Source of the DNA: Eledone cirrhosa
Taxonomy: Eukaryota
Reading direction: 5' to 3'
NCBI GenBank assembly: GCA_964016885.1
Contig: OZ024742.1
Coordinates: 148,304,001-148,368,000 of the forward strand
Length of the DNA: 64,000 nucleotides
Made by a program: the position numbers and the translations under genes. The notes beneath the pieces are model-generated. The model searched no databases and was not told where the DNA came from. It worked only from the letters and a program-made list of their open reading frames with translations. Of this stretch, positions 4,301 through 59,070 are shown piece by piece (the stretch's first letter is position 1; every line of letters begins with the position of its first letter).

Positions 4301-7300
4301 ACAACCATTACCACCTCCGCAATCATTACTACTACAAACATTACCACCACCGCAATCATTACTATTACAACCATTACCACCACCATAACAACCATTGCCA
4401 CCTCCGCAAGCTTTACTACTACAACCATTACCACCACCATACCTACCATTACCACAACCACACAGCCATTACCACCTCCGCAATCATTACTACTACAACC
4501 ATTACCACCACAATAACAACCATTACCACCCCCATAACTACCATTACCACCACCATAACAACCATTACCACCTCTGCAATCATTACTACTAGAACCATTA
4601 CCACCACCATCACAACCATTACCACCTCTGCAATCATTACTACTAGAACCATTACCACCACCATAACAACCATTACCACCTCTGCAATCATTACTACTAC
4701 AACCATTACCACTACCATAACAACCATTACCACCTCCGCAATCATTACTACTTCAAGCATTACCACCTCCGCAATCATTACTACTACAACCATTACCACC
4801 ACCATAACAACCATTACCACCTCCGCAACCATTACTACTACAAACATTACCACCACCGCAATCATTACTACTACAACCATTACCACCACCATAACAACCA
4901 TTACCACCTCCGCAGTCATTACTACAACAACCATTACTACCATAATAACAACCATTACCTCCACCATAACAACCATTACCACCACCGCAATCATTACTAC
5001 TACAACCATTACCACCACCATAACAAACATTACCACCACCATAACAACCATTGCCACCTCCGCAATCTTTACTACTACAACCATTACCACCACCATACCA
5101 ACCATTACCACAACCACACAGCCATTACCACCTCCGCAATCATTGCTACTACAACCATTACCACCACAATAACAACCATTACCACCCCCATAACTACCAT
5201 TACCACCACCATAACAACCAATACCACCTCTGCAATCATTACTGCTAGAACCATTGCCACCACCATAACAACCATTACCACCTCTGCAATCATTACTACT
5301 AGAACCATTACCACCACCATAACAACCATTACCACCTCTGCAATCATTACTACTACAACCATTACCACCACCATAACAACCATTACCACCTCCGCAATCA
5401 TTACTACTACAACCATTACCACTACCATAACAACCATTACCACCTCCGCAATCATTACTACTACAACCATTACCACCACCATAACAACCATCACCACCTC
5501 CGCAGTCATTACTAATACAACGATTACCACCACCATAACAACCATTACCTCGACCGCAATCATTACTACTACAACCATTACTACCACCATAACAACCATT
5601 ACCTCCACCATAACAACCATTACCACCACCGCAATCATTACTACTACAACCATTACCACCACCATAACAAACATTACCACCACCATAACAACCATTACCA
5701 CCTCCGCAATCTTTACTACTACAACCATTACCACCACCATAGCAACCATTACCACAACCACACAGCCATTACCACCTCCGCAATCATTACTACTACAACC
5801 ATTACCACCACAATAACAACCATTACCACCAACATAACAACCATTACCACCTCTGCAATCATTATTACTAGAACCATTACCACCACCATAACAACCATTA
5901 CCAACACTGCAATCATTATTACTAGAACCATTACCACCACCATAACAACCATTACCACCTCTGCAATCATTACTACTACAACCATTACCACCACCATAAC
6001 AACCATTACCACCTCCGCAATCATTACTACTACAACCATTACCACCACAATAACAACCATTACCATCTCCGCAATCATTACTACTTCAACCATTACCACC
6101 TCCGCAATCATTAATACTACAACCATTACCACCACCATAACAACCATTAACACCTCCGCAATCATTACTACTACAAACATTACCACCTCCGCAACCATTA
6201 CTACTACAACCATTACCACTACCATAACAACCATTACCACCTCCGCAATCATTACTACTACAACGATTACCACCACCATAACAACCATTACCACCTCCGC
6301 AATCATTAATACTACAACCATTACCACCACCATAACCACCATTACCACCTCCGCAACCATTACTACTACAACCATTACCACTACCATAACAACCATTACC
6401 ACCTCCGCAATCATTACTACTACAACGATTACCACCACCTCCGCAATCATTACTACTACAACCATTACCACCACCATAACAACCATTACCACCTCCGCAA
6501 TCATTACTACTACAAACATTACCACCACCGCAATCATTACTATTACAACCATTACCACCACCATAACAACCATTGCCACCTCCGCAAGCTTTACTACTAC
6601 AACCATTACCACCACCATACCTACCATTACCACAACCACACAGCCATTACCACCTCCGCAATCATTACTACTACAACCATTACCACCACAATAACAACCA
6701 TTACCACCCCCATAACTACCATTACCACCACCATAACAACCATTACCACCTCTGCAATCATTACTACTAGAACCATTACCACCACCATCACAACCATTAC
6801 CACCTCTGCAATCATTACTACTAGAACCATTACCACCACCATAACAACCATTACCACCTCTGCAATCATTACTACTACAACCATTACCACTACCATAACA
6901 ACCATTACCACCTCCGCAATCATTACTACTTCAAGCATTACCACCTCCGCAATCATTACTACTACAACCATTACCACCACCATAACAACCATTACCACCT
7001 CCGCAACCATTACTACTACAAACATTACCACCACCGCAATCATTACTACTACAACCATTACCACCACCATAACAACCATTACCACCTCCGCAGTCATTAC
7101 TACAACAACCATTACTACCATAATAACAACCATTACCTCCACCATAACAACCATTACCACCACCGCAATCATTACTACTACAACCATTACCACCACCATA
7201 ACAAACATTACCACCACCATAACAACCATTGCCACCTCCGCAATCTTTACTACTACAACCATTACCACCACCATACCAACCATTACCACAACCACACAGC

Positions 7301-33141: not shown

Positions 33142-34480
33142 ATGGTTTTTATGGTGGTGGTAATGGTCGTTATGGTGGTGGTAATGGTTGTAGTAATAAT
33201 GATTGCGGTGGTAGTAATGGTTGTTATGGTGGTGGTAATGGTTGTTATGGTGGTAGCAAGGGTTGTAGTAGTAATAATTGCGGAGGTGGTAATGATTGTT
33301 ATGGTGGTAGTAATGGTTGTTATAGTAACGATTGCGGAGTTGGTAATGGTTGTTATGGTGGTAGGAATGGTTGTATTAATAATGATTGCGGAGGTGGTAA
33401 TGGTTGTTATGGTGGGGGTAATGGTTGTTATGGTGGTAGTAATGGTTGTAGTAGTAATGATTGCGGAGGTGGTAATTGATGTTATGGTGGTGGTAATGGT
33501 TGTTATGGTGGTAGTAATGTTTGTAGTAGTAATGATTGCGGAGGTGGTAATGGTTGTTATGGTGGTGGTAATGGTTGTAGTAGTAATGCTTGCGGAGGTG
33601 GTAATGGTTGAAGTAGAAATGATTGCGGAGGTGGTAATGGTTGTATGGTGGTAGTAATGGTTGTAGTAGTAATGATTGCAGTGGTGGTAATGGTTGTTAT
33701 GGTGGTGGTAATGGTTGTAGTAGTAATGCTTGCGGAGGTAGTAATGGTTGAAGTAGAAATGATTAAGGAGGTGGTAATGGTTGTTATCGTGCTGGTAATG
33801 GTTGTAGTATTAATGATTGCGGAGGTGGTAATGGTTGTTATGGTGGTGGGAATGGTTGTTGTAATAATGATTGCGGAGGTGGTAATGGTTGTTATGATGG
33901 TGGTAATGGTTGTAGTAGTAGTGATTGCGGAGGTGGTAATGGTTGTTATGGTGGTGATAACGGTTGTAGTAGTAATGATTGCGGAGGTGGTAATGGTTGT
34001 TATGGTGGTGGTAATGGTTTTTATGGTGATGGTAATGGTTGTAGTAGTAATGATTGCGGAGGTGGTAATGGTTGGTATGGTGGTGGTAATGGTTGTAGTA
34101 GTAAAGATTGCGGAGGTGGTAATGGTTGTTATGGTGGTGGTAATCGTTGTAGTAGTAATGAGTGCGGAGGTGGTAATGGTTGTTATGGTAGTGGTAATGT
34201 TTGTAGTAGTAATGATTGCGGAGGTGGTAATGGTTGTTATGGTGGTGGTAATGGTTTTTATGGTGATGGTAATGGTTGTAGTAGTAATGATTGCGGAGGT
34301 GGTAATGTTTGTTATGGTGGTGGTAATGGTTGTAGTAGTAATGATTGTGGAGGTGTTAATGGTTGTTATGGTGGTGGTAATTGTTGTAGTAGTAATGATT
34401 GCGGAGGTGGTAATGGTTGTTATGGTAGTGGTAATGGTTGTAGTATTAATGATTGCGGAGGTGGTAATGGTTGAAGTATT
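33142..34480 (-). repeat. Inverted block of the satellite
   Basis: Sequence switches abruptly to the GT-rich reverse complement at ACCATATGGT (33137-33146) and switches back at GTATTAATAC (34476-34485). Confidence 0.97.
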
Positions 34481-37400
34481 AATACAACCATTACCACCTC
34501 CGCAACCATTACTACTACAACCATTACCACCACCATAACAACCATTACCACCTCCGCAATCATTACCACTACAACCATTACCACCACATAACAACCATTA
34601 CCACCTCCGCAATCATTACTACCACCATACCAACCATTACCACCACCGCAAGTATTACTACTACAACCATTACCACCACTGCAATCATTACTACTACAAC
34701 CATTACTACCAGCTTAACAACCATTACCACCACCATAACAAGCATTACCACCTCCGCAATCAATACTACTTCAACCATTACCACCTCCGCAATCATTACT
34801 ACTACAACTATTACTACCACCATAACAACCATTACCACCACCATAACAACCATTAGCACCTCCGCAATCATTACTACTACAAACATTACCACCACCATAA
34901 CAACCATTGCCACCTCCGCAATCATTACTACTACAACCATTACCACCACCATACCAACCATTACCACCACCACAACAACCATTACCACCACCGCAATGAT
35001 TACTACTACAACCATTACCACCACCATAATAACCATTACCACCTCCGCAATTAATATTACAACAACCATTACCTCCACCATAACAACCATTACCACCTCC
35101 GCAATCATTACTACTTCAACCATTACCACCTCCGCAATCATTACTACTACAACCATTACCACCACCATACCAACCATTACCACCACCAAAATAACCATTA
35201 CCACCACCTTAACAACCATTACCACCTCCGCAATCATTACTACTACAACCATTACCACCACCATAACAACGATCACCACCTCCGCAATCATTACTACTAC
35301 AACCATTACCACCACCATAACAACCATTACCACCTCCGCAATCATTACTACTATAATCATTACCACCACCATAACAACCATTACCACCTCCGAAATCATT
35401 ATTACTACAATGATTACCACCACCATAACAACCATTACCACCTCCGCAATCATTACTACTATAACCATTGTTCCCACGATAACAACCATTATCACCACCA
35501 TAACAACCATTACCACCTCCGCAATCGTTACTATAACAACCATTACCACCACCATAACAACCATTACTACTACCGCAATCATTATTACTACAACCATTAC
35601 CACCACCATAACAACCATTACCACCACCATAACAACCATTACCACTTCCACAATCATTACTACTACAACCATTACCACCATCATAACAACCATTACCACC
35701 ACCGCAATCATTACTACTACAACCATTACCACCATCATAACAACCATTACTACCACCGCAATCATTACTACTACAACCATTACCACCATCATAACAACCA
35801 TTACCACCACCGCAATCATTACTACTACAACCATTACCACCACCATAACAACCATTACCACTTCCACAATCATTACTACTACAACCATTACCACCATCAT
35901 AACAACCATTACCACCACCGCAATCATTACTACTACAACCATTACCACCATCATAACAACCATTACTACCACCGCAATCATTACTACTACAACCATTACC
36001 ACCATCATAACAACCATTACCACCACCGCAATCATTACTACTACAACCATTACCACCACCATAACAACCATTACCACCACCGCAATCATTACTACTACAA
36101 CCATTACCACCATCATAACAACCATTACCACCACCGCAATCATTACTACTACAACCATTACCACCACCATAACAACCATTACCACTTCCACAATCATTAC
36201 TACTACAACCATTACCACCATCATAACAACCATTACCACCACCGCAATCATTACTACTACAACCATTACCACCACCATAACAACCATTACCACTTCCACA
36301 ATCATTACTACTACAACCATTACCACCATCATAACAACCATTACCACCACCGCAATCATTACTACTACAACCATTACCACCATCATAACAACCATTACCA
36401 CCACCGCAATCATTACTACTACAACCATTGCTACCACCATAACAAACATTACCACCACCGCAATCATTACTACTACAACCATTATCACCACCATAACAAC
36501 CATTACGACCCCCGCAATCGTTACTATAACAACCATTACCACCACCATAACAACCATTACCACCTTCGCAATCATTACTACTTCAACCATTACCTCCTCC
36601 GCAATCATTACTACTACAACCATTACTACCACCATAACAACCATTACCACCACCATAACAACCATTACCACCTCCGCAATCATTACTACTACAACCATTA
36701 CTACCACCATTACAACCATTACCACCACCATAACAACCATTACCACCTCCGCAATCATTACTACTGCAACCATTACCACCACCATAACAACCATTACCAC
36801 CACCATAACAACCATTACCACCTCTGCAATCATTACTACTACAACCATTACTACCACCATAACAACCATTACCACCACCATAACAACCATTACCACCTCC
36901 GCAATCATTACTACTGCAACCATTACCACCACCATAACAACCATTACCACCACCATAACAACCATTACCACCTCTGCAATCATTACTACTACAACCATTA
37001 CCACCACCATAACAACCATTACCTCGACCGCAATCATTACTACTACAACCATTGCTACCACCATAACAACCATTACCACCTCCGCAACCATTACTACTAC
37101 AAACATTACCACCTCCGAAATCATTACTACTACAACCATTACCACCACCATAACAAACATTACCACCTCCGCAACCATTACTACTACAATCATTACCACT
37201 ACCATAACAACCATTACCACCTCCGCAATCATTACTACTACAACCATTACCACCATCATAACAACCATTACCACCACCGCAATCATTACTACTACAACCA
37301 TTACCACCATCATAACAACCATTACTACCACCGCAATCATTACTACTACAACCATTACCACCATCATAACAACCATTACCACCACCGCAATCATTACTAC

Positions 37401-51453: not shown

Positions 51454-51800
<347 letters not shown>

Positions 51801-51805
51801 TATAT

Positions 51806-51954
51806 ATAGGAAAAAGTAAGACCCCGACGGCAGAGCTCAAGCCGTTTCGACGGCTATTTCTGGACTTTTTTCTATTTCCCACTCTACTACCCTAAGTATT
51901 GAGTACTCGCGTGCGTTATGGTCCATCTGGTTCCTTAACACAATTCCTTTGTTA
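51806..51954 (+). mobile_element. Miniature relic of the Naiad-like PLE (inverted pLTR piece + sense tail) within (TA)n
   Basis: 51806-51866 matches 55930-55990 in the same orientation. 51872-51954 matches the reverse complement of ~55850-55933 with several mismatches. Confidence 0.88.
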
Positions 51955-52428: not shown

Positions 52429-52586
52429 GAGGCTATATTTAATTTGCTGGGATACAACAAGCAAAATATTTTTATAACTGATATAAAGCACTGAACAAAT
52501 TATTGGAGTAAATATACAATATATTAACAAATGGAAACTGTATTTATAAAACCATATTTATTTCATTATACATATTTCAAGGGCCA

Positions 52587-54155
52587 TTATACACAGTGAT
52601 CCCGGACATGACTGCAGCCCAGATCGAAAAACAGACCAACTCCATTTGGTTCGATATCTGTAGGAGAAGACAACTCCCAAATAAAGTTAAGCTCAACTAC
52701 CCCACTAGAAATAGCAGACTGCCCACTTTCTACCACCTCATCAAGACCCACAAGAATAGTACTAAGACCCAAATAAGACCCATCGTCTCTAGCATAGAAG
52801 GACCCCTATACAAAATTTCCTGGCTTCTCTCCTAGGTCCTCAAGCCTCTACTCTCCACCTTCCCCGGGCATGTCAGTAGCTCCGACGAAGTTATACGTAG
52901 ACTACACCAACTCCAGCCAGAACAACTTAAACTAAATAAATACGCTTTTAACCTCGACGTTGTCTCCCTCTACACTACAGTCCCCGCTCATCCAGCTGTC
53001 GATTTATTGACGGACTGCGTGGTCGCAGAGGACATCCACTGCTACGGCCTCCACCCGACGGACATACACCAGCTTTTGTCCTTCACAGTAGACAACACGT
53101 ACTTCACCTTCCACCACCACACATACAGACAGACAACAGGATTACCCATGGGATCCAGCCTATCGGGCCTGCTGGCCATCACCTACATGAACCAGCTAGA
53201 ATGCCGAGCCCTCAACACCTGCCATTCCCATGCCTTCTTCACCCGATATGTAGATGACATACTCATCCTTACATCATCCCGTGAGGAGGCAGAGAAAATA
53301 TACTCAACATTCTCCAGCATGGACGCCAGTATAAAGTTCAGCATGGAACACCCCGATGACCGCGGATCCCTATCCCTACTGGACTTCCAACTCAGGGTAA
53401 CAGAGGAAGGCAACATCCACACCTGCTTCTATAAAAAATCCGCCAGCAGGGACCTGTTCGTACATTTCAGATCGGCCCTCCCACTCGGTGCCAAGTTCGG
53501 ATACATAAGGAACGAACTGGCACGTATCAAGAACAAATGCACCGACGCTAGAGACCGAGACACACACACCACACATTTCCTGGAAGTACTCAAACTGAAC
53601 GGATACACGACATCCACCACAAACCGTGCCAGAAAGAACAGAGGACACCACACCCGAGGCACTAACACTTGCTTCCTGAAGCTCCCACACTTCAGTGAAG
53701 AAACAACAACAGCCATCCGCAGAGCCATCAGACGAGAGGGACTGGATATCCAACTGGCCCACTCGGGTCCTTCTCTGCGCGGACGGCTGGCCAACAGACA
53801 CCCCACCAGACATGACAACTGCTGCAGACTAGCCAACTGCCCCATCAACGACACAGATCTATGCCACCAGGCTTACGTAGTATACAGACTAGAGTGTGAC
53901 AAATGCAACAACTTCTACGTAGGTAGCACCACCAGACCACTCCACATAAGAATAAAAGAACACCTCAATACTAACGCTTCCTCATTTAAGAAACACCTAG
54001 TTAAATGCAAAAACACCGATAAAACCATAACAGTTAGGATAGAAACTAAGGAAAGAAACCTCGGCAATCTTAGAATTAAGGAAGCACTAATTATAGATAA
54101 AACACAACCACCAATCAATAATAGACTAGAACTCAACACCCAATTTATAACCTGA
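52587..54155 (+). pseudogene. 5'-truncated Penelope-like retroelement ORF (reverse transcriptase + GIY-YIG endonuclease) with one in-frame stop
   Basis: ORFs 52596-52835 and 53007-54155 share a frame and are separated only by TAG at 52833-52835. Motifs: KTHK..RPIVS, LDVVSLYT, GLPMGSSLS, RYVDD, LSLLDF, a Cys-rich linker, and VVYRLEC...FYVGSTTRPLHIRIKEH. Confidence 0.93.
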
Positions 54156-54519
54156 TAGGGCCTCTAGCCACTTATTTACACCCCCCACACACACACACGC
54201 TTACACCTCCACTTATTCTCTCACACATACACACACAAAACCAGTTCTAACACCAGATAACACCTACCCCCCACATTTACGAATAGACCTATCTTCCCAC
54301 ACTCACACACACATACCTACACCTTCATGCATTCTCCCACACACTTATACAGGCATGTATATAAAATAAAAACAAAAAAACCCTAAACAAACCCCCTTTA
54401 AAGGGAGACTACTCTTTATCCACCTAATTTTAATTCTTTGATATTAGAGATAGAACAGATACTCTATACTATTTCCTGTCAGCATGGCTTGGCTAGATAT
54501 TTAAAGCGCTGGTTTGAGA

Positions 54520-54590
54520 CCTTTATTTCCCTCCGAAGAAGAGATATTATCTCGAAAATTAAGAACATTTTAATAAATTCAAGGTAAAGG
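54520..54590 (+). ncRNA. Degenerate type I hammerhead-like motif in the PLE1 3' end
   Basis: CCTTTA..CCCT-CCGAAGA-A-GAGATA/TATCTC-GAAA-ATT...AAT-TC-AAGGTAAAGG. The core has U4->C and stems I and III are imperfect. Confidence 0.55.
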
Positions 54591-54678
54591 ACGAATTATC
54601 AACAACATCTTTTACAATTGCGTTCTTTTTTCTATGTCCATATCTGCATTGTTTTGGCTTTATTACACATATTCAAAC

Positions 54679-54856: not shown

Positions 54857-54935
<79 letters not shown>

Positions 54936-55013
54936 TATATACATACATACACATACACTTACATGCAAGTAGACAAACCTATAGACGTGCATATATATAT
55001 GCAAGTACATACA

Positions 55014-55055
<42 letters not shown>

Positions 55056-55178
55056 TGTGTTTATATATGAGTTCATACATTATGAGCATTCAACTTCCCC
55101 CACCAAAAAATAACATACAGAATGGTTGCATTTTTTAAGGGTATGTCAATATTTAGTTATAAAACTAACCTATATTAT

Positions 55179-55242
55179 ATTTTATCTGATGAAAGCGCAC
55201 CATAGTTTGCTCTGGTGGCCCTTGAAATATGTATAATGAAAT
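55179..55242 (+). ncRNA. Minimal type I hammerhead ribozyme (PLE-type)
   Basis: ATTTTAT-CTGATGA-stem II (AAGCGCACCA/TGGTGGCCCTT)-GAAA-TATGTA-TA-ATGAAAT. Predicted cut after 55235. Confidence 0.75.
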
Positions 55243-55277
55243 AAATATGGTTTTATAAATATAGTTTCCATTTGTTA

Positions 55278-55309
<32 letters not shown>

Positions 55310-55784: not shown

Positions 55785-55853
<69 letters not shown>

Positions 55854-55944
55854 CGAAGGAAATGTGGTAAGGAACCAGGTGGACCATAACGCACCAAAGT
55901 ACTCAATACTTGAGGTAGTAGAGTGGGTAATAGGAACCAGTAAG

Positions 55945-56038
55945 ACCCCGACAGCTGAGCTCAAGCCGTTTCGACGGCTAATTCTGGACTAAATGAAAAT
56001 TTATCCTGGTATTTAAATAGCCGATCTTCTCAAGGGGT
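55945..56038 (-). ncRNA. Type I hammerhead ribozyme, U3-A8 core variant (3' pLTR of PLE2)
   Basis: On the - strand: ACCCC-TTGAGAA-GA(T)CGGCTA...TAGCCGTC-GAAA-CGGCT..AGCTG-TC-GGGGT, with a canonical GUC cleavage triplet. Confidence 0.8.
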
Positions 56039-57142
56039 AATTCCATATATGGTCAAAGTGATTGTCAAAAATCAGTAGTAATTCTGTGGTTGCAAATTAG
56101 TAGGGGAGATGGTGGCTAAACCTGCCAGTAGGAGAAAGAGGGGAGGGGGTGGAGTAGCCCCAATCAAGCGTTGGTAGTGCCAGCTACAGCTGGGCATGAG
56201 GTCAAAGAAGATACAGGGGAGGGGGAGGGGGAGGGGGAGGAAGTCGGAACGGTAGGTAGAACAATGGGGGTAGAAATATATAGGAAAGAAAAAATACTGA
56301 GAGTGAAGAAAAGCAAATAAGTGTAAAGAAAAAAGTAAAGTAAATTAAATTCTACGACCTAGGTCTCAGGCTATTGTTAGGCTAGAATAAAATAAATAAA
56401 GAAAGAAAGAAGTAAAGAAATAAATAAATAAAGAAATAACGAAATAAGTAAAAGAACTAGGTGGGACGGATAAGGCAAGGACCCTTTTAAGAGGTATAAG
56501 TACGTAAATGATACGGTGACGGGTCAACAAAAGGGGCCAAAATGCTAAAGAGACTACCACGAAATAAACAATAAAGGTTTCCATCCCGGGCCAGCAACGA
56601 CCCAGTGCAGCAAAGTGAACTTGTACGAGATAATAATTCTGAGTCCCGAGAAAAATATATACTAATGCTAACTCTAAAAGATCTAAAACAAGCTACATGA
56701 AAGTTCGTACGAAATAAAGGTAGAATACGGAGAAATAAATTCAGAATCCACCCCGCCCAGAAGAAAAGCGAAGCAAGAAATACTGAAACGAAAAAATAAG
56801 GCATAAGTGCCACTAAGAAATATAGAGGGCACAGAGAATAGTGGGAGCGGTCGGAAAAAGGGGGCAAGTATCCGGGGTCTAAGCCAACTGCTATAAAGGG
56901 CGGAGTCCGCCAAATCTATCATAGACTAGGGGAGGGGGTGGTGGGGGTACTAAGGCTACATGGGGCCAAAGGGCAGCCTCGGGTGGGCGAGAAAAGACGC
57001 CGACAAAGGAGAAGAGCTGGGGTAGAAGGACTAAGGAGAGAGGGGGGAAGGAAATAAAGGAAGCGATAAAAGAATACAAAGAAGATCTTACGTCTTCCTT
57101 GGCAAGCAGGGGTTACCCATTGCAAAATCGGCAAGTGGGGTG

Positions 57143-58483
57143 TTATAGCCCTAGTCTACCCCCCCCCCCCGGGTCATTATGGGGTTTGAGGGCGAGGTAA
57201 GTCCTACGCAATCTATGTTTACATGCAGTAACCAGTTCATCTTTCTTGTTTAGGAGTTGGTCCGTCGAAAACAGCATTTGTAAAGTTTCCTCCGAGCATA
57301 AATTGCACGGACGGCGTCCTCCCGTGTAAGAATTGGCTCTGGACAGTAATCTCCAAGTGAGATCATAGGTGATGTTGTTGTCCTTGAGGTCCCATATGTG
57401 GCCCGAAAGTGTAGTGGCGTGACGCCGGGCCGGGTTTCGGAAGGTATGTCTATGTTGGTATAGCCGGGTCTTGAAGTCACATGCGGTAAGTCCTATATAG
57501 GCTTTGTTGGAGGTATCCGTCCTCACGTTGCACTGGTAGATCACATTACGGTCTCTGCATCTATTGTCGAGTGGGCAAATAGATCTATCCGGGCAGTTAC
57601 ACCTCCTGGTCGGTTCTCCACTGCTATTTAGGTTATTTCTGCCATCGGGGTTGAGTTTTTTGTTGTTAGAGGAGACGATGTTTTGTGCGAAGTTTGGTGT
57701 AGTGCTGTAAGAGAGTTTGATGGTATTTTTGTTAATTATGTTGTGGTAGCGGTGTTGTAATGGGAAGTGTTTTTCAATGAGCCTAAAGAATAGTTTCCCG
57801 ATGGGAGTTGTCACCTCTGCGTTGTGGGGAGGATTGAACCATGTTACATTGCGTGAGCGGCGGTGTCTCCTGCTGGTTCCGCTAATGGGAGCTGGACAGT
57901 AGGATATTTCCTCCCGGAAACCACTCCGCTTGAGGGCCTGGTTGTAATAAGGCGCATGTTCATCGAATATCCGCTCATTAGCTGACAAACGGGATATGCG
58001 GAGGGAGATGTTTTTGACCAGGTTGTTTGTGATGTTCCTAGGATGGTTTGATCGGCGGTGGATGTAGTGCAGATTGTCATTAGGTTTCCTGTATGGGTAG
58101 TACAGGTCGTTTTCGAGGTCGAGGGTCACGTCCAGGAAGTTTACTCGGGTCAGGGACGTTTGTAGGGTTATTTTAAATCCCCAGTCGCGGAAGAATCTGA
58201 TTAATTGTTTCCGGACCCGATCTGTACTACTGGGGTTGTACCCTTTAAGGGTAAGGAGCCCATCATCACGGTACAATCCACCACCGAATGCAGGAAACAT
58301 ATCAGTGAGTTTGGCTATTAGGAATAATCCTATAAGATCTGTGACCTCCGCCGAATCCGTGGCGCCCATGCTGACGTCGAAGGGTGAGTCGGGAGTTCTT
58401 TTTATCCATTTAGAGTCGTCAAAGAGTAAGACTGTCTTCCTGGCGTGGAGGATGATTTTTCTTTCCTGGTCGGTGATGGACAC
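57143..58483 (-). CDS. Penelope-like (Naiad-like) RT C-terminal part + Cys-rich linker + GIY-YIG endonuclease, N-terminally truncated
   Basis: Motifs FDVSMGATDSAEV, GLYRDDGL, VNFLDVTLDL, YRKPND..YIH..SNHP, WFNPP, CNC..CPL..C, and VIYQC...YIGLT..FKTRLYQH. No stops or frameshifts. The clade name is from my recollection of the motifs. Confidence 0.9.
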   Translation of the reverse strand: MSITDQERKIILHARKTVLLFDDSKWIKRTPDSPFDVSMGATDSAEVTDLIGLFLIAKLTDMFPAFGGGLYRDDGLLTLKGYNPSSTDRVRKQLIRFFRDWGFKITLQTSLTRVNFLDVTLDLENDLYYPYRKPNDNLHYIHRRSNHPRNITNNLVKNISLRISRLSANERIFDEHAPYYNQALKRSGFREEISYCPAPISGTSRRHRRSRNVTWFNPPHNAEVTTPIGKLFFRLIEKHFPLQHRYHNIINKNTIKLSYSTTPNFAQNIVSSNNKKLNPDGRNNLNSSGEPTRRCNCPDRSICPLDNRCRDRNVIYQCNVRTDTSNKAYIGLTACDFKTRLYQHRHTFRNPARRHATTLSGHIWDLKDNNITYDLTWRLLSRANSYTGGRRPCNLCSEETLQMLFSTDQLLNKKDELVTACKHRLRRTYLALKPHNDPGGGGRLGL

Positions 58484-58485
58484 AA

Positions 58486-59070
58486 GTCACCGTATCATTT
58501 ACGTACTTATACCTCTTAAAAGGATCCTTGCCTCTTCCGTCCCACCTAGTTCTTTTACTTATTTCGTTATTTCTTTATTTATTTATTTCTTTACTTCTTT
58601 CTTTCTTTCTTTATTTTATTCTAGCCTAACAATAGCCTGAGACCTAGGTCGTAGAATTTAATTTACTTTACTTTTTTCTTTACACTTATTTGCTTTTCTT
58701 CACTCTCAGTATTTTTTCTTTCCTATATATTTCTACCCCCCATTGTTCTACCTACCGTTCCGACTTCCTCCCCCTCCCCCTCCCCTGTATCTTCTTTGAC
58801 CTCATGCCCAGCTGTAGCTGGCACTACCAACGCTTGATTGGGTCTACTCCACCCCTCCCCTCTTTCTCCTACTGGCAGGTTTAGCCACCATCTCCCCTAC
58901 TAATTTGCAACCACAGAATTACTACTGATTTTTGACAATCACTTTGACCATATATGGAATTACCCCTTGAGAAGATCGGCTATTTAAATACCAGGATAAA
59001 TTTTCATTTAGTCCAGAATTAGCCGTCGAAACGGCTTGAGCTCAGCTGTCGGGGTCTTACTGGTTCCTAT
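58486..59070 (+). repeat. Inverted pLTR copy of PLE2
   Basis: Reverse complement of 55930-56520 with a few substitutions and one indel in the (GGGGGA)n run. Confidence 0.96.
58962..59055 (+). ncRNA. Type I hammerhead ribozyme, U3-A8 core variant (inverted pLTR)
   Basis: Same motif as 55945-56038 on the opposite strand. GTC at 59048-59050. Confidence 0.8.

What the first reader, a model, noticed from the sequence alone, without database searches (positions are those of the whole stretch)
55945..59055. Naiad-like element carries a rare U3-A8 core-variant hammerhead with a long stem II
Seen: the core reads UUGAGAA instead of CUGANGA, with intact stems, GAAA and a GUC triplet, in both pLTR copies. 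Established: C3-G8 is a tertiary Watson-Crick pair, so U3-A8 is the compensatory double change, and standard CUGANGA searches miss it. The relic at 51806-51866 has G-C where these copies have G-U in stem III, which fits the predicted fold. The stem III loop contains the palindrome GAGCTC, a possible dimerisation site (inference).
Basis: partly seen in the sequence, partly recalled or inferred. Interest (0 to 1): 0.72.

Follow-up and report, generated by a model that had tools for sequence, protein, structure and literature searches.

The report
Hydra retrotransposon hammerhead with cut scars
A very abundant, recently active jumping gene of the Hydra type (not Naiad) carries a hammerhead-shaped RNA with an already published U-A core pair, and about a quarter of its complete motifs have that pair mismatched, while many tiny back-to-back copies start exactly at the predicted cut site, which likely records weak self-cutting in the living animal.

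Summary
The motif is real: identical type I hammerhead-like folds with a UUGAGAA core at 58962-59055 (+) and 55945-56038 (-). The element is not a Naiad. It is a Hydra-clade Penelope-like element (RT, CxCX5C linker, C-terminal GIY-YIG, DKT, (TA)n target; 3.53-kb unit). The two copies are an inverted pair from one insertion. U3-A8 is already published for Penelope hammerheads (Schistosoma, about 1,300 hits) and is not rare here: 7,011 Y3/A8 cores against 59 with G8. The family shows no C3-G8/U3-A8 covariation. About 25% of cores are C3·A8 mismatches that form a run of subfamilies ancestral to the window's, and an old subfamily has U3·G8. The other core bases, the stems and the GAGCUC loop stay fixed while loop II drifts. 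In 27 of 50 short head-to-head copies both arms end at the predicted scissile bond (2.8% expected), yet 29 of 40 longer copies read through it. Best reading: a slow ribozyme whose cleavage is real but largely dispensable. No cleavage assay or RNA data. The scan noted a mismatch family in this genome, and such scars in other genomes, before.

The parts
55945..56038 (-). Type I hammerhead-like motif in the sense of the element (3' pLTR); core UUGAGAA 56033-56027, C17 at 55950
55852..55944 (-). Sequence after stem I, including the tail; the copy ends about 100 nt after C17 in (TA)n (inferred distal reverse-transcription start)
56039..57142 (-). About 1.1-kb 3' UTR
57143..58486 (-). 5'-truncated ORF (residues 277-717 of the 717-aa protein of intact copies, 99% identical): RT with YRDD, CxCX5C linker, C-terminal GIY-YIG-like domain with CxxC and CxH
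58486..59070 (+). Inverted 5'-truncated piece of the same 3' end (97.8% to 55930-56520), ending 17-20 nt after C17 in (TA)n
58962..59055 (+). Second, identical hammerhead-like motif: stem I 58962-58966/59051-59055, core 58967-58973, stem II 58974-58982/59020-59027, GAAA 59028-59031, stem III 59032-59036/59044-59048, loop with GAGCTC 59038-59043, C17 59050
51806..51866 (-). Relic of an older subfamily: 3' half of the motif only (no stem I 5' strand, no core), joined to an inverted tail at about 51872-51940

Best explanation
This is the end repeat of a recently active Hydra-clade Penelope-like retrotransposon, and it carries a type I hammerhead fold with a U3-A8 core that likely cuts its own RNA after GUC, slowly and in only part of the molecules. 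Shown: the clade motifs, a 3.53-kb unit with one motif per unit and the cut site 190 nt upstream of the first Met, copy ends 17-20 and about 100 nt downstream of the cut site, conserved stems and core apart from positions 3, 7 and 8, and a pile-up of copy 5' ends at the scissile bond. Inferred: the RT starts internally at those two downstream sites, as shown in vitro for the anole PLE. On uncut (or re-ligated) RNA it runs through the motif and makes long or tandem copies. On RNA already cut it runs off after 17 or 100 nt, adds an untemplated base, and leaves the tiny head-to-head copies. Cutting is thus likely real but not needed for insertion, so the 3-8 pair could drift through U3·G8, U3-A8 and C3·A8 while the fold was kept. 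A competing hairpin (stem II 3' strand with stem III 5' strand) and dimer formation through the palindromic stem III are predicted to tune the rate.
For: Clade: RWR, DKT, CNC-X5-C, CxxC..E and CxH in a natural 717-aa copy match Craig 2021 section 11. Selection on the fold: across 11 subfamily groups (114 copies) 3 of 29 structured columns of the 3' half vary against 17 of 37 in loop II (p = 0.003). With ten core-region positions left open, 100 listed copies keep U4, A6, A8 and A9 in 100, G5 in 99 and G10.1 in 96, while N7 takes all four bases (counted by eye). Scars: 470 short head-to-head junctions genome-wide; in the first 50, both arms end within 1 nt of the cut in 27 (uniform null 2.8%), 43 of 100 arm ends fall exactly on it, and the base before GGGG is T 19, A 13, G 6, C 0 in 38 arms of that class. 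Read-through: 29 of 40 copies that continue into the ORF keep the site intact (by eye). Literature: internal RT starts, protein-assisted cleavage, and cleavage not needed for insertion in vitro (PMC11167929); U3-A8 reported active in vitro (as cited in PMC3088659).
Against: No cleavage assay and no RNA reads. About 25% of cores have a C3·A8 mismatch and still spread; single 3 or 8 changes abolished cleavage in the anole PLE ribozyme. In a type III hammerhead scan only the C3G/G8C swap rescued this region, which implies low activity for U3-A8 there (PMC9901934). No covariation above shuffles; RNAalifold does not return the hammerhead fold; folding z-score is only -0.9; the fold is lost in three of four wider upstream contexts tested. 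Scars also occur with tails linked to C3·A8 subfamilies (5 of 7 and 3 of 22), which fits a cause independent of core chemistry. Frangieh 2024 found no RNA reads ending at the cut site.
Confidence: 0.66

Rival explanations
1. The motif is a nearly dead hammerhead kept as a protein-binding or RT-positioning structure. The pile-up of 5' ends marks a transcription start (C|G fits a pyrimidine-purine start, from recall) or an RT stop at the three-way junction, not a cut.
For: C3·A8 subfamilies lasted over many tree steps. Exact matches to the 3' half (53,660) far outnumber full cores (7,011), and the RT starts lie just downstream. Scars also occur with C3-type tails. HHR mutants insert normally in vitro.
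Against: Ends stop before C17, not at the base of stem III (C in 0 of 38 arms of the class). An extra G, expected from a cap, is seen in only 6 of 38. Only 1 of 40 ORF-continuing copies begins exactly there, which is unlike a main start site. The unpaired catalytic bases stay fixed while N7 is free.
Confidence: 0.2
2. Cleavage is efficient and is followed by ligation into unit or dimer circles, which the RT copies by rolling circle; read-through copies come from circles, not from uncut RNA.
For: Head-to-tail arrays of near-identical units (0-12 differences within arrays, 9-93 between). Both arrays with four full units alternate A-B-A-B. Proposed by Cervera and De la Pena 2014.
Against: In one A-B-A-B array the partial 5' unit is A-type, out of phase with a dimer circle, and another array is A-A-B, so DNA-level duplication or template switching fits as well. 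A mismatched core is hard to square with efficient obligatory cleavage.
Confidence: 0.1
3. In the C3 subfamilies the core is re-registered (C3 pairs with G7, no N7) and stays active.
For: G7 appears on the same tree branch as C3 and is in 95 of 100 listed C3 cores.
Against: G7 persists in later U3 subfamilies; the lack of N7 change in C3 groups was not tested statistically; I found no precedent in the papers read.
Confidence: 0.03
4. The element is a Naiad, and the motif is the missing Naiad hammerhead.
For: Only the (TA)n target, which Hydra elements share.
Against: The endonuclease is C-terminal, no CCHH is seen, and the Hydra motifs are present.
Confidence: 0.01

Closest known systems
Hydra clade of C-terminal-EN Penelope-like elements (Craig et al. 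2021, PMC8557442; section 11, passages, supplement parts 1-2 and one search read)
   Same: Single ORF RT-linker-GIY-YIG, DKT, CxCX5C, CxxC and CxH, no CCHH, (TA)n target, inverted 5' piece and tail, type I hammerhead with a palindromic stem III near the 3' end.
   Different: All 26 Hydra rows of File S2 have CUGANGA and 3-4 bp stems III with 1-3 nt loops. This family has Y3/A8, a 5-bp stem III with a 7-nt loop, a 37-nt loop II, a 3.5-kb unit (theirs are mostly under 3 kb) and RWR for RWK.
U3-A8 minimal hammerheads of Schistosoma mansoni Cercyon PLEs (Cervera and De la Pena 2014, PMC4209133; parts 1-2 of 4 read, supplements not read)
   Same: U3-A8 core in a pLTR, missed by the standard descriptor, over a thousand copies, palindromic helix III and predicted dimer.
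   Different: Those are minimal motifs without helix III; this one can form stem III alone. No C3·A8 or U3·G8 subfamilies and no cut-site copy ends are mentioned in the parts read.
Natural U3-A8 hammerheads (Perreault et al. 2011, PMC3088659; section 8 and passages read)
   Same: U3-A8 named as a natural compensatory variant, active in vitro by citation.
   Different: There it is covariation with C3-G8; inside this family no C3-G8 lineage was found.
Poseidon_Ac PLE of Anolis (Frangieh et al. 2024, PMC11167929; parts 1-2 of 4 read)
   Same: Two internal RT starts that define the tail; hammerhead at the pLTR-ORF junction; cleavage not needed for insertion.
   Different: Canonical C3-G8 core, different clade, and no RNA ends found at the cut site, whereas copy ends pile up there in this genome.

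Membership tests
Naiad PLE | N-terminal GIY-YIG endonuclease before the RT | tested here: not met
   RT (YRDD) precedes VIY..YIG at the C-terminus
Naiad PLE | DKA motif | tested here: not met
   DKT
Naiad PLE | CX2-5CxxC finger and CCHH in the endonuclease | tested here: not met
   Linker is CxCX5C; no CCHH seen by eye
Hydra PLE | Single ORF with C-terminal GIY-YIG | tested here: met
   717-aa ORF with VIY..YIG read by eye. Pfam gives no hit on it; the homolog P0001 scores GIY-YIG at 26 bits
Hydra PLE | DKT | tested here: met
   112 of 120 listed homologs share it
Hydra PLE | RWK | tested here: inconclusive
   RWR at the same place; RWK in 84 and RWR in 30 of 120 homologs
Hydra PLE | CxCX5C linker | tested here: met
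   CNCPDRSIC
Hydra PLE | CxxC and CxH around the conserved E and N, no CCHH | tested here: met
   CNLCSEE..NK..CKH
Hydra PLE | (TA)n insertion | tested here: met
Hydra PLE | Groups with Hydra proteins in an RT tree | not tested
   Reference proteins were seen only as paper text; similarity to Hydra-1_Obim noted by eye
Type I hammerhead ribozyme | Three stems around the core with NUH site | tested here: met
   87% of cells paired in 48 distinct rows
Type I hammerhead ribozyme | U4 G5 A6 A9 G12 A13 A14 A15.1 U16.1 H17 conserved | tested here: met
   0 of 10 vary among 11 groups (the 5' ones partly fixed by the search patterns); left open
Type I hammerhead ribozyme | Watson-Crick pair between 3 and 8 | tested here: inconclusive
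   Met in the window copies (U-A). C·A in 25 of 100 listed; U·G in 20 of 27 of an old subfamily
Type I hammerhead ribozyme | Covariation in the stems | tested here: inconclusive
   Score 0.049 against 0.050 in shuffles; the stems barely vary
Type I hammerhead ribozyme | Site-specific self-cleavage | not testable with these tools
   Indirect only: copy ends at the predicted bond

The most novel reading that the evidence does not exclude
The genome holds a fossil record of a Penelope hammerhead cutting in vivo, and cutting acts as a brake: it turns templates into 17- or 100-nt dead ends. Selection therefore kept the ribozyme weak, the lineage passed through U3·G8 and a long C3·A8 phase, and even mismatched RNAs were cut, in trans by U3-A8 partners through the invariant GAGCUC dimer loop or with help from the element's protein.
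Probability: 0.22. Interest if true: 0.75.

Novelty: new variant of a known kind. Interest (0 to 1): 0.48.

Why it matters
What hammerheads do in Penelope-like elements is open: activity in vitro is low, mutants insert normally, and no cut RNA ends were found in the anole. This family gives a natural allelic series at the 3-8 pair (U·G, U-A, C·A) on an otherwise fixed fold, with intact recent copies and countable cut-site scars per subfamily. That makes the link between cleavage rate and transposition directly testable. It also shows that CUGANGA-only searches miss thousands of motifs in one genome. The U3-A8 variant alone is not new.

Tried and rejected
Rfam: no hammerhead hit. DNA search of the own genome with the 131-bp motif gave no candidates, because common words are skipped; patterns were used instead. 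Pfam gives nothing on the Hydra ORF. No RNA holder listed; the four runs laid were contigs of one study, perhaps the assembly's own sample. A C3-G8 subfamily was sought and rejected: 11 C3-G8 matches against 14 C3 matches for the A9G control, and 1 of 100 listed in the C3 group. Rooting failed: the protein tree (26 of 59 rows kept, 45% cover cut-off) puts the distant outgroups on the intact young copies, a likely artefact; outgroup-state counts are mixed and lean to a root near the old C3 group. So the order of U3·G8 and the older U3-A8 groups is unresolved. The rooting step did not apply, so that tree is read unrooted. Covariation and RNAalifold gave no support. The automatic end-caller stopped at subfamily variants, so those 40 rows were read by eye. 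A dimer-circle origin of the A-B-A-B arrays was considered and left open. Przybilski and Hammann 2007 and Nelson and Uhlenbeck 2008a,b are not held, so no rates for U3-A8, C3·A8 or U3·G8 are quoted. A sequence look-up in earlier findings returned nothing.

Full report
Observation. The window holds ACCCC-UUGAGAA-stem II-GAAA-stem III-GUC-GGGGU at 58962-59055 (+), with C17 at 59050, and an identical copy at 55945-56038 (-). The 103-nt piece folds as a three-way junction, but its energy is unremarkable (z = -0.9). A descriptor finds one hit per strand in 45-64 kb and none in 200 shuffles. Rfam finds no hammerhead. The two copies belong to a 591-bp inverted repeat (97.8%): a 5'-truncated body on the minus strand and an inverted piece of its own 3' end, both ending in (TA)n. 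The relic at 51806-51866 is the 3' half only.

The element. The ORF at 57143-58486 (-) has an RT followed by CNCPDRSIC, VIY..YIG, CNLCSEE and CKH. Intact natural copies give a 717-aa ORF with RWR and DKT in a 3,531-bp unit, one motif per unit, the cut site 190 nt upstream of the first Met. These are the features that Craig et al. 2021 give for the Hydra clade; Naiads have an N-terminal endonuclease (PMC8557442). The protein search found 2,049 relatives among 7,996 scored, and most of the 120 listed carry the same motifs. The family is young and large: at least 65 places match a 200-aa piece at the top score (150 scored of 64,291 candidates), and a 23-mer from the 3' half has 53,660 exact matches, 0 for the reversed control.

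The 3-8 pair. With equal flanks, Y3/A8 gives 7,011 matches, Y3/G8 59 and the A9G control 35. Of the 59, 11 are C3-G8, no more than the 14 C3 matches of the control, so they look like later mutations; 1 of 100 listed C3 cores has G8 (543 in all). C3·A8 is 25 of the first 100 matches (about 1,750 if extrapolated from the start of contig 1), 22 of 100 have C3 when the core is left open (by eye), and T>C stands at about 25% depth in three of four laid contig sets of one study. A small, diverged subfamily has U3·G8 in 20 of 27. A tree of 114 of 158 extracted ends (44 dropped as truncated or lacking the 3' half), with positions 3 and 8 masked, is a ladder: youngest U3-A8 groups, then a continuous run of C3 groups (support 0.97 and 1.0 at its borders), then older U3-A8, then U3·G8. 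The window's group is the youngest (0.65 differences per copy against 4.9-9 for the C3 groups), so its U3-A8 most likely arose from C3·A8 by a C-to-U change. The root is unresolved. The sample is enriched for G8 copies, which distorts the majority base of one three-copy group.

Selection on the fold. Among 11 groups, 3 of 29 structured columns of the 3' half vary against 17 of 37 in loop II (p = 0.003; the 5' half was left out of this test because the patterns fixed it). Loop III varies in 0 of 7 columns. There is no covariation above shuffles, and the 3-8 pair forms in 29 of 48 distinct rows (50 rows given: the window and 49 of 70 picked copies, leaving out most G8-selected copies and inverted partners). 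RNAalifold prefers other pairings. Stem II's 3' strand and stem III's 5' strand can form a competing hairpin (0.24 against 0.76 in 127 nt of the window's group, dominant in several others), the full fold fails in three of four contexts with 150-300 nt upstream and holds with 60 nt or less, and co-folding two motifs gives the double-hammerhead arrangement. These are predictions without tertiary contacts.

Cut-site scars. Prompted by earlier notes on other genomes, I searched for short head-to-head junctions: 470 loci. In the first 50, all on contig 1, both arms end within 1 nt of the scissile bond in 27, against 2.8% under a uniform null; 43 of 100 arm ends are exact; in 38 arms of that class with a spacer the base before GGGG is T 19, A 13, G 6, C 0. 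The rule is conservative: three more look exact by eye. The outer ends lie 17-20 and about 100 nt after C17. That is what RT run-off with an untemplated base on a cut RNA would give. The null is crude, and a start site or an RT stop is not excluded. Tails linked to C3 groups give 8 of 29 (5 of 7 and 3 of 22) against 22 of 38 for U3-type tails (p = 0.025), but age differs, and the link from tail to core rests on four copies each, with one U3-A8 exception. Among 40 of 306 copies that continue from the tail into the ORF, 29 read through the site, 1 begins exactly on it, 3 begin 2-3 nt upstream and 7 downstream (by eye).

Mechanism. Shown: anatomy, counts, conservation, end positions. From the literature: internal RT starts define the tail, cleavage is protein-assisted and not needed for insertion (PMC11167929, parts 1-2 of 4); PLE hammerheads cleave weakly and are thought to work as dimers (PMC4209133, parts 1-2 of 4). 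Inferred: uncut or re-ligated RNA gives long and tandem copies, cut RNA gives tiny ones, and weak cutting lets the 3-8 pair drift. I put this at 0.66, a nearly dead structural motif at 0.2 and efficient cutting with circles at 0.1.

Against what is known. U3-A8 is in print for natural hammerheads (PMC3088659, section 8 and passages) and for Schistosoma PLEs, about 1,300 hits. All 26 Hydra rows of Craig's File S2 are CUGANGA. A deep scan of a type III hammerhead found only the C3G/G8C swap rescued (PMC9901934, passages). I also saw part 1 of 5 of the 2026 retrozyme preprint and passages of PMC3884650 and PMC7151607, which add nothing decisive. Searches showed no paper on a Hydra U3-A8 family, on C3·A8 subfamilies or on copy ends at PLE cut sites; most hits were seen as listings only, and Cervera's supplements, figures and the preprint's supplements were not seen and may bear on this. 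Earlier notes of this scan report a mismatch family in this genome and scars in other genomes; they are leads, not support.

Verdict. A real motif in a misnamed element, with a known variant core. The added value is the allelic series and the cut-site scars: new variant of a known kind, interest 0.48.

Noticed in passing
G000:C1:437.199-437.215 Mb (L156, L121, L122) and C1:91.47-91.49 Mb (L123, L151): Both arrays with four full units alternate A-B-A-B (1 site; 4 shared sites); another array (L157-L158) is A-A-B. A dimer circular template, template switching or DNA-level duplication all fit.
   Followed up: partly
upstream of the array in L151-L152: About 30 tandem copies of a 55-bp piece of the ORF sit at the 5' truncation point.
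   Followed up: no
window 52512-54155 (+) and 54518-54592: A second, unrelated PLE (RT and C-terminal GIY-YIG by Pfam, one in-frame stop) ends in a hammerhead-like fold whose core reads CCGAAGA or similar, with a UUC site.
   Followed up: no
window 55186 (+), 63770 (-), 60632 (+), 50746 (+), 59323 (+): Further CUGANGA..GAAA relics of other repeat families; 55186, 60632 and 63770 have a clear stem II.
   Followed up: no
alignment A1 columns 9-12 with 18-21: Position 3 varies between U and C, and both pair with G in an alternative 4-bp hairpin that would hide the core (49 of 50 rows paired).
   Followed up: no
window 51454-51808 and 54914-55119; 52512-52586 and 55216-55290: Inverted duplications of flanking and repeat sequence around the second PLE.
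   Followed up: no
window 1 to about 41000: A long degenerate satellite of 12-, 15-, 18- and 21-nt steps with an inverted block at about 33644-34483.
   Followed up: no
L122 about 5500-5800; L040: Pieces of a more distant Hydra-like endonuclease lie next to copies of this family (41% identity in L040); a possible closer outgroup.
   Followed up: no
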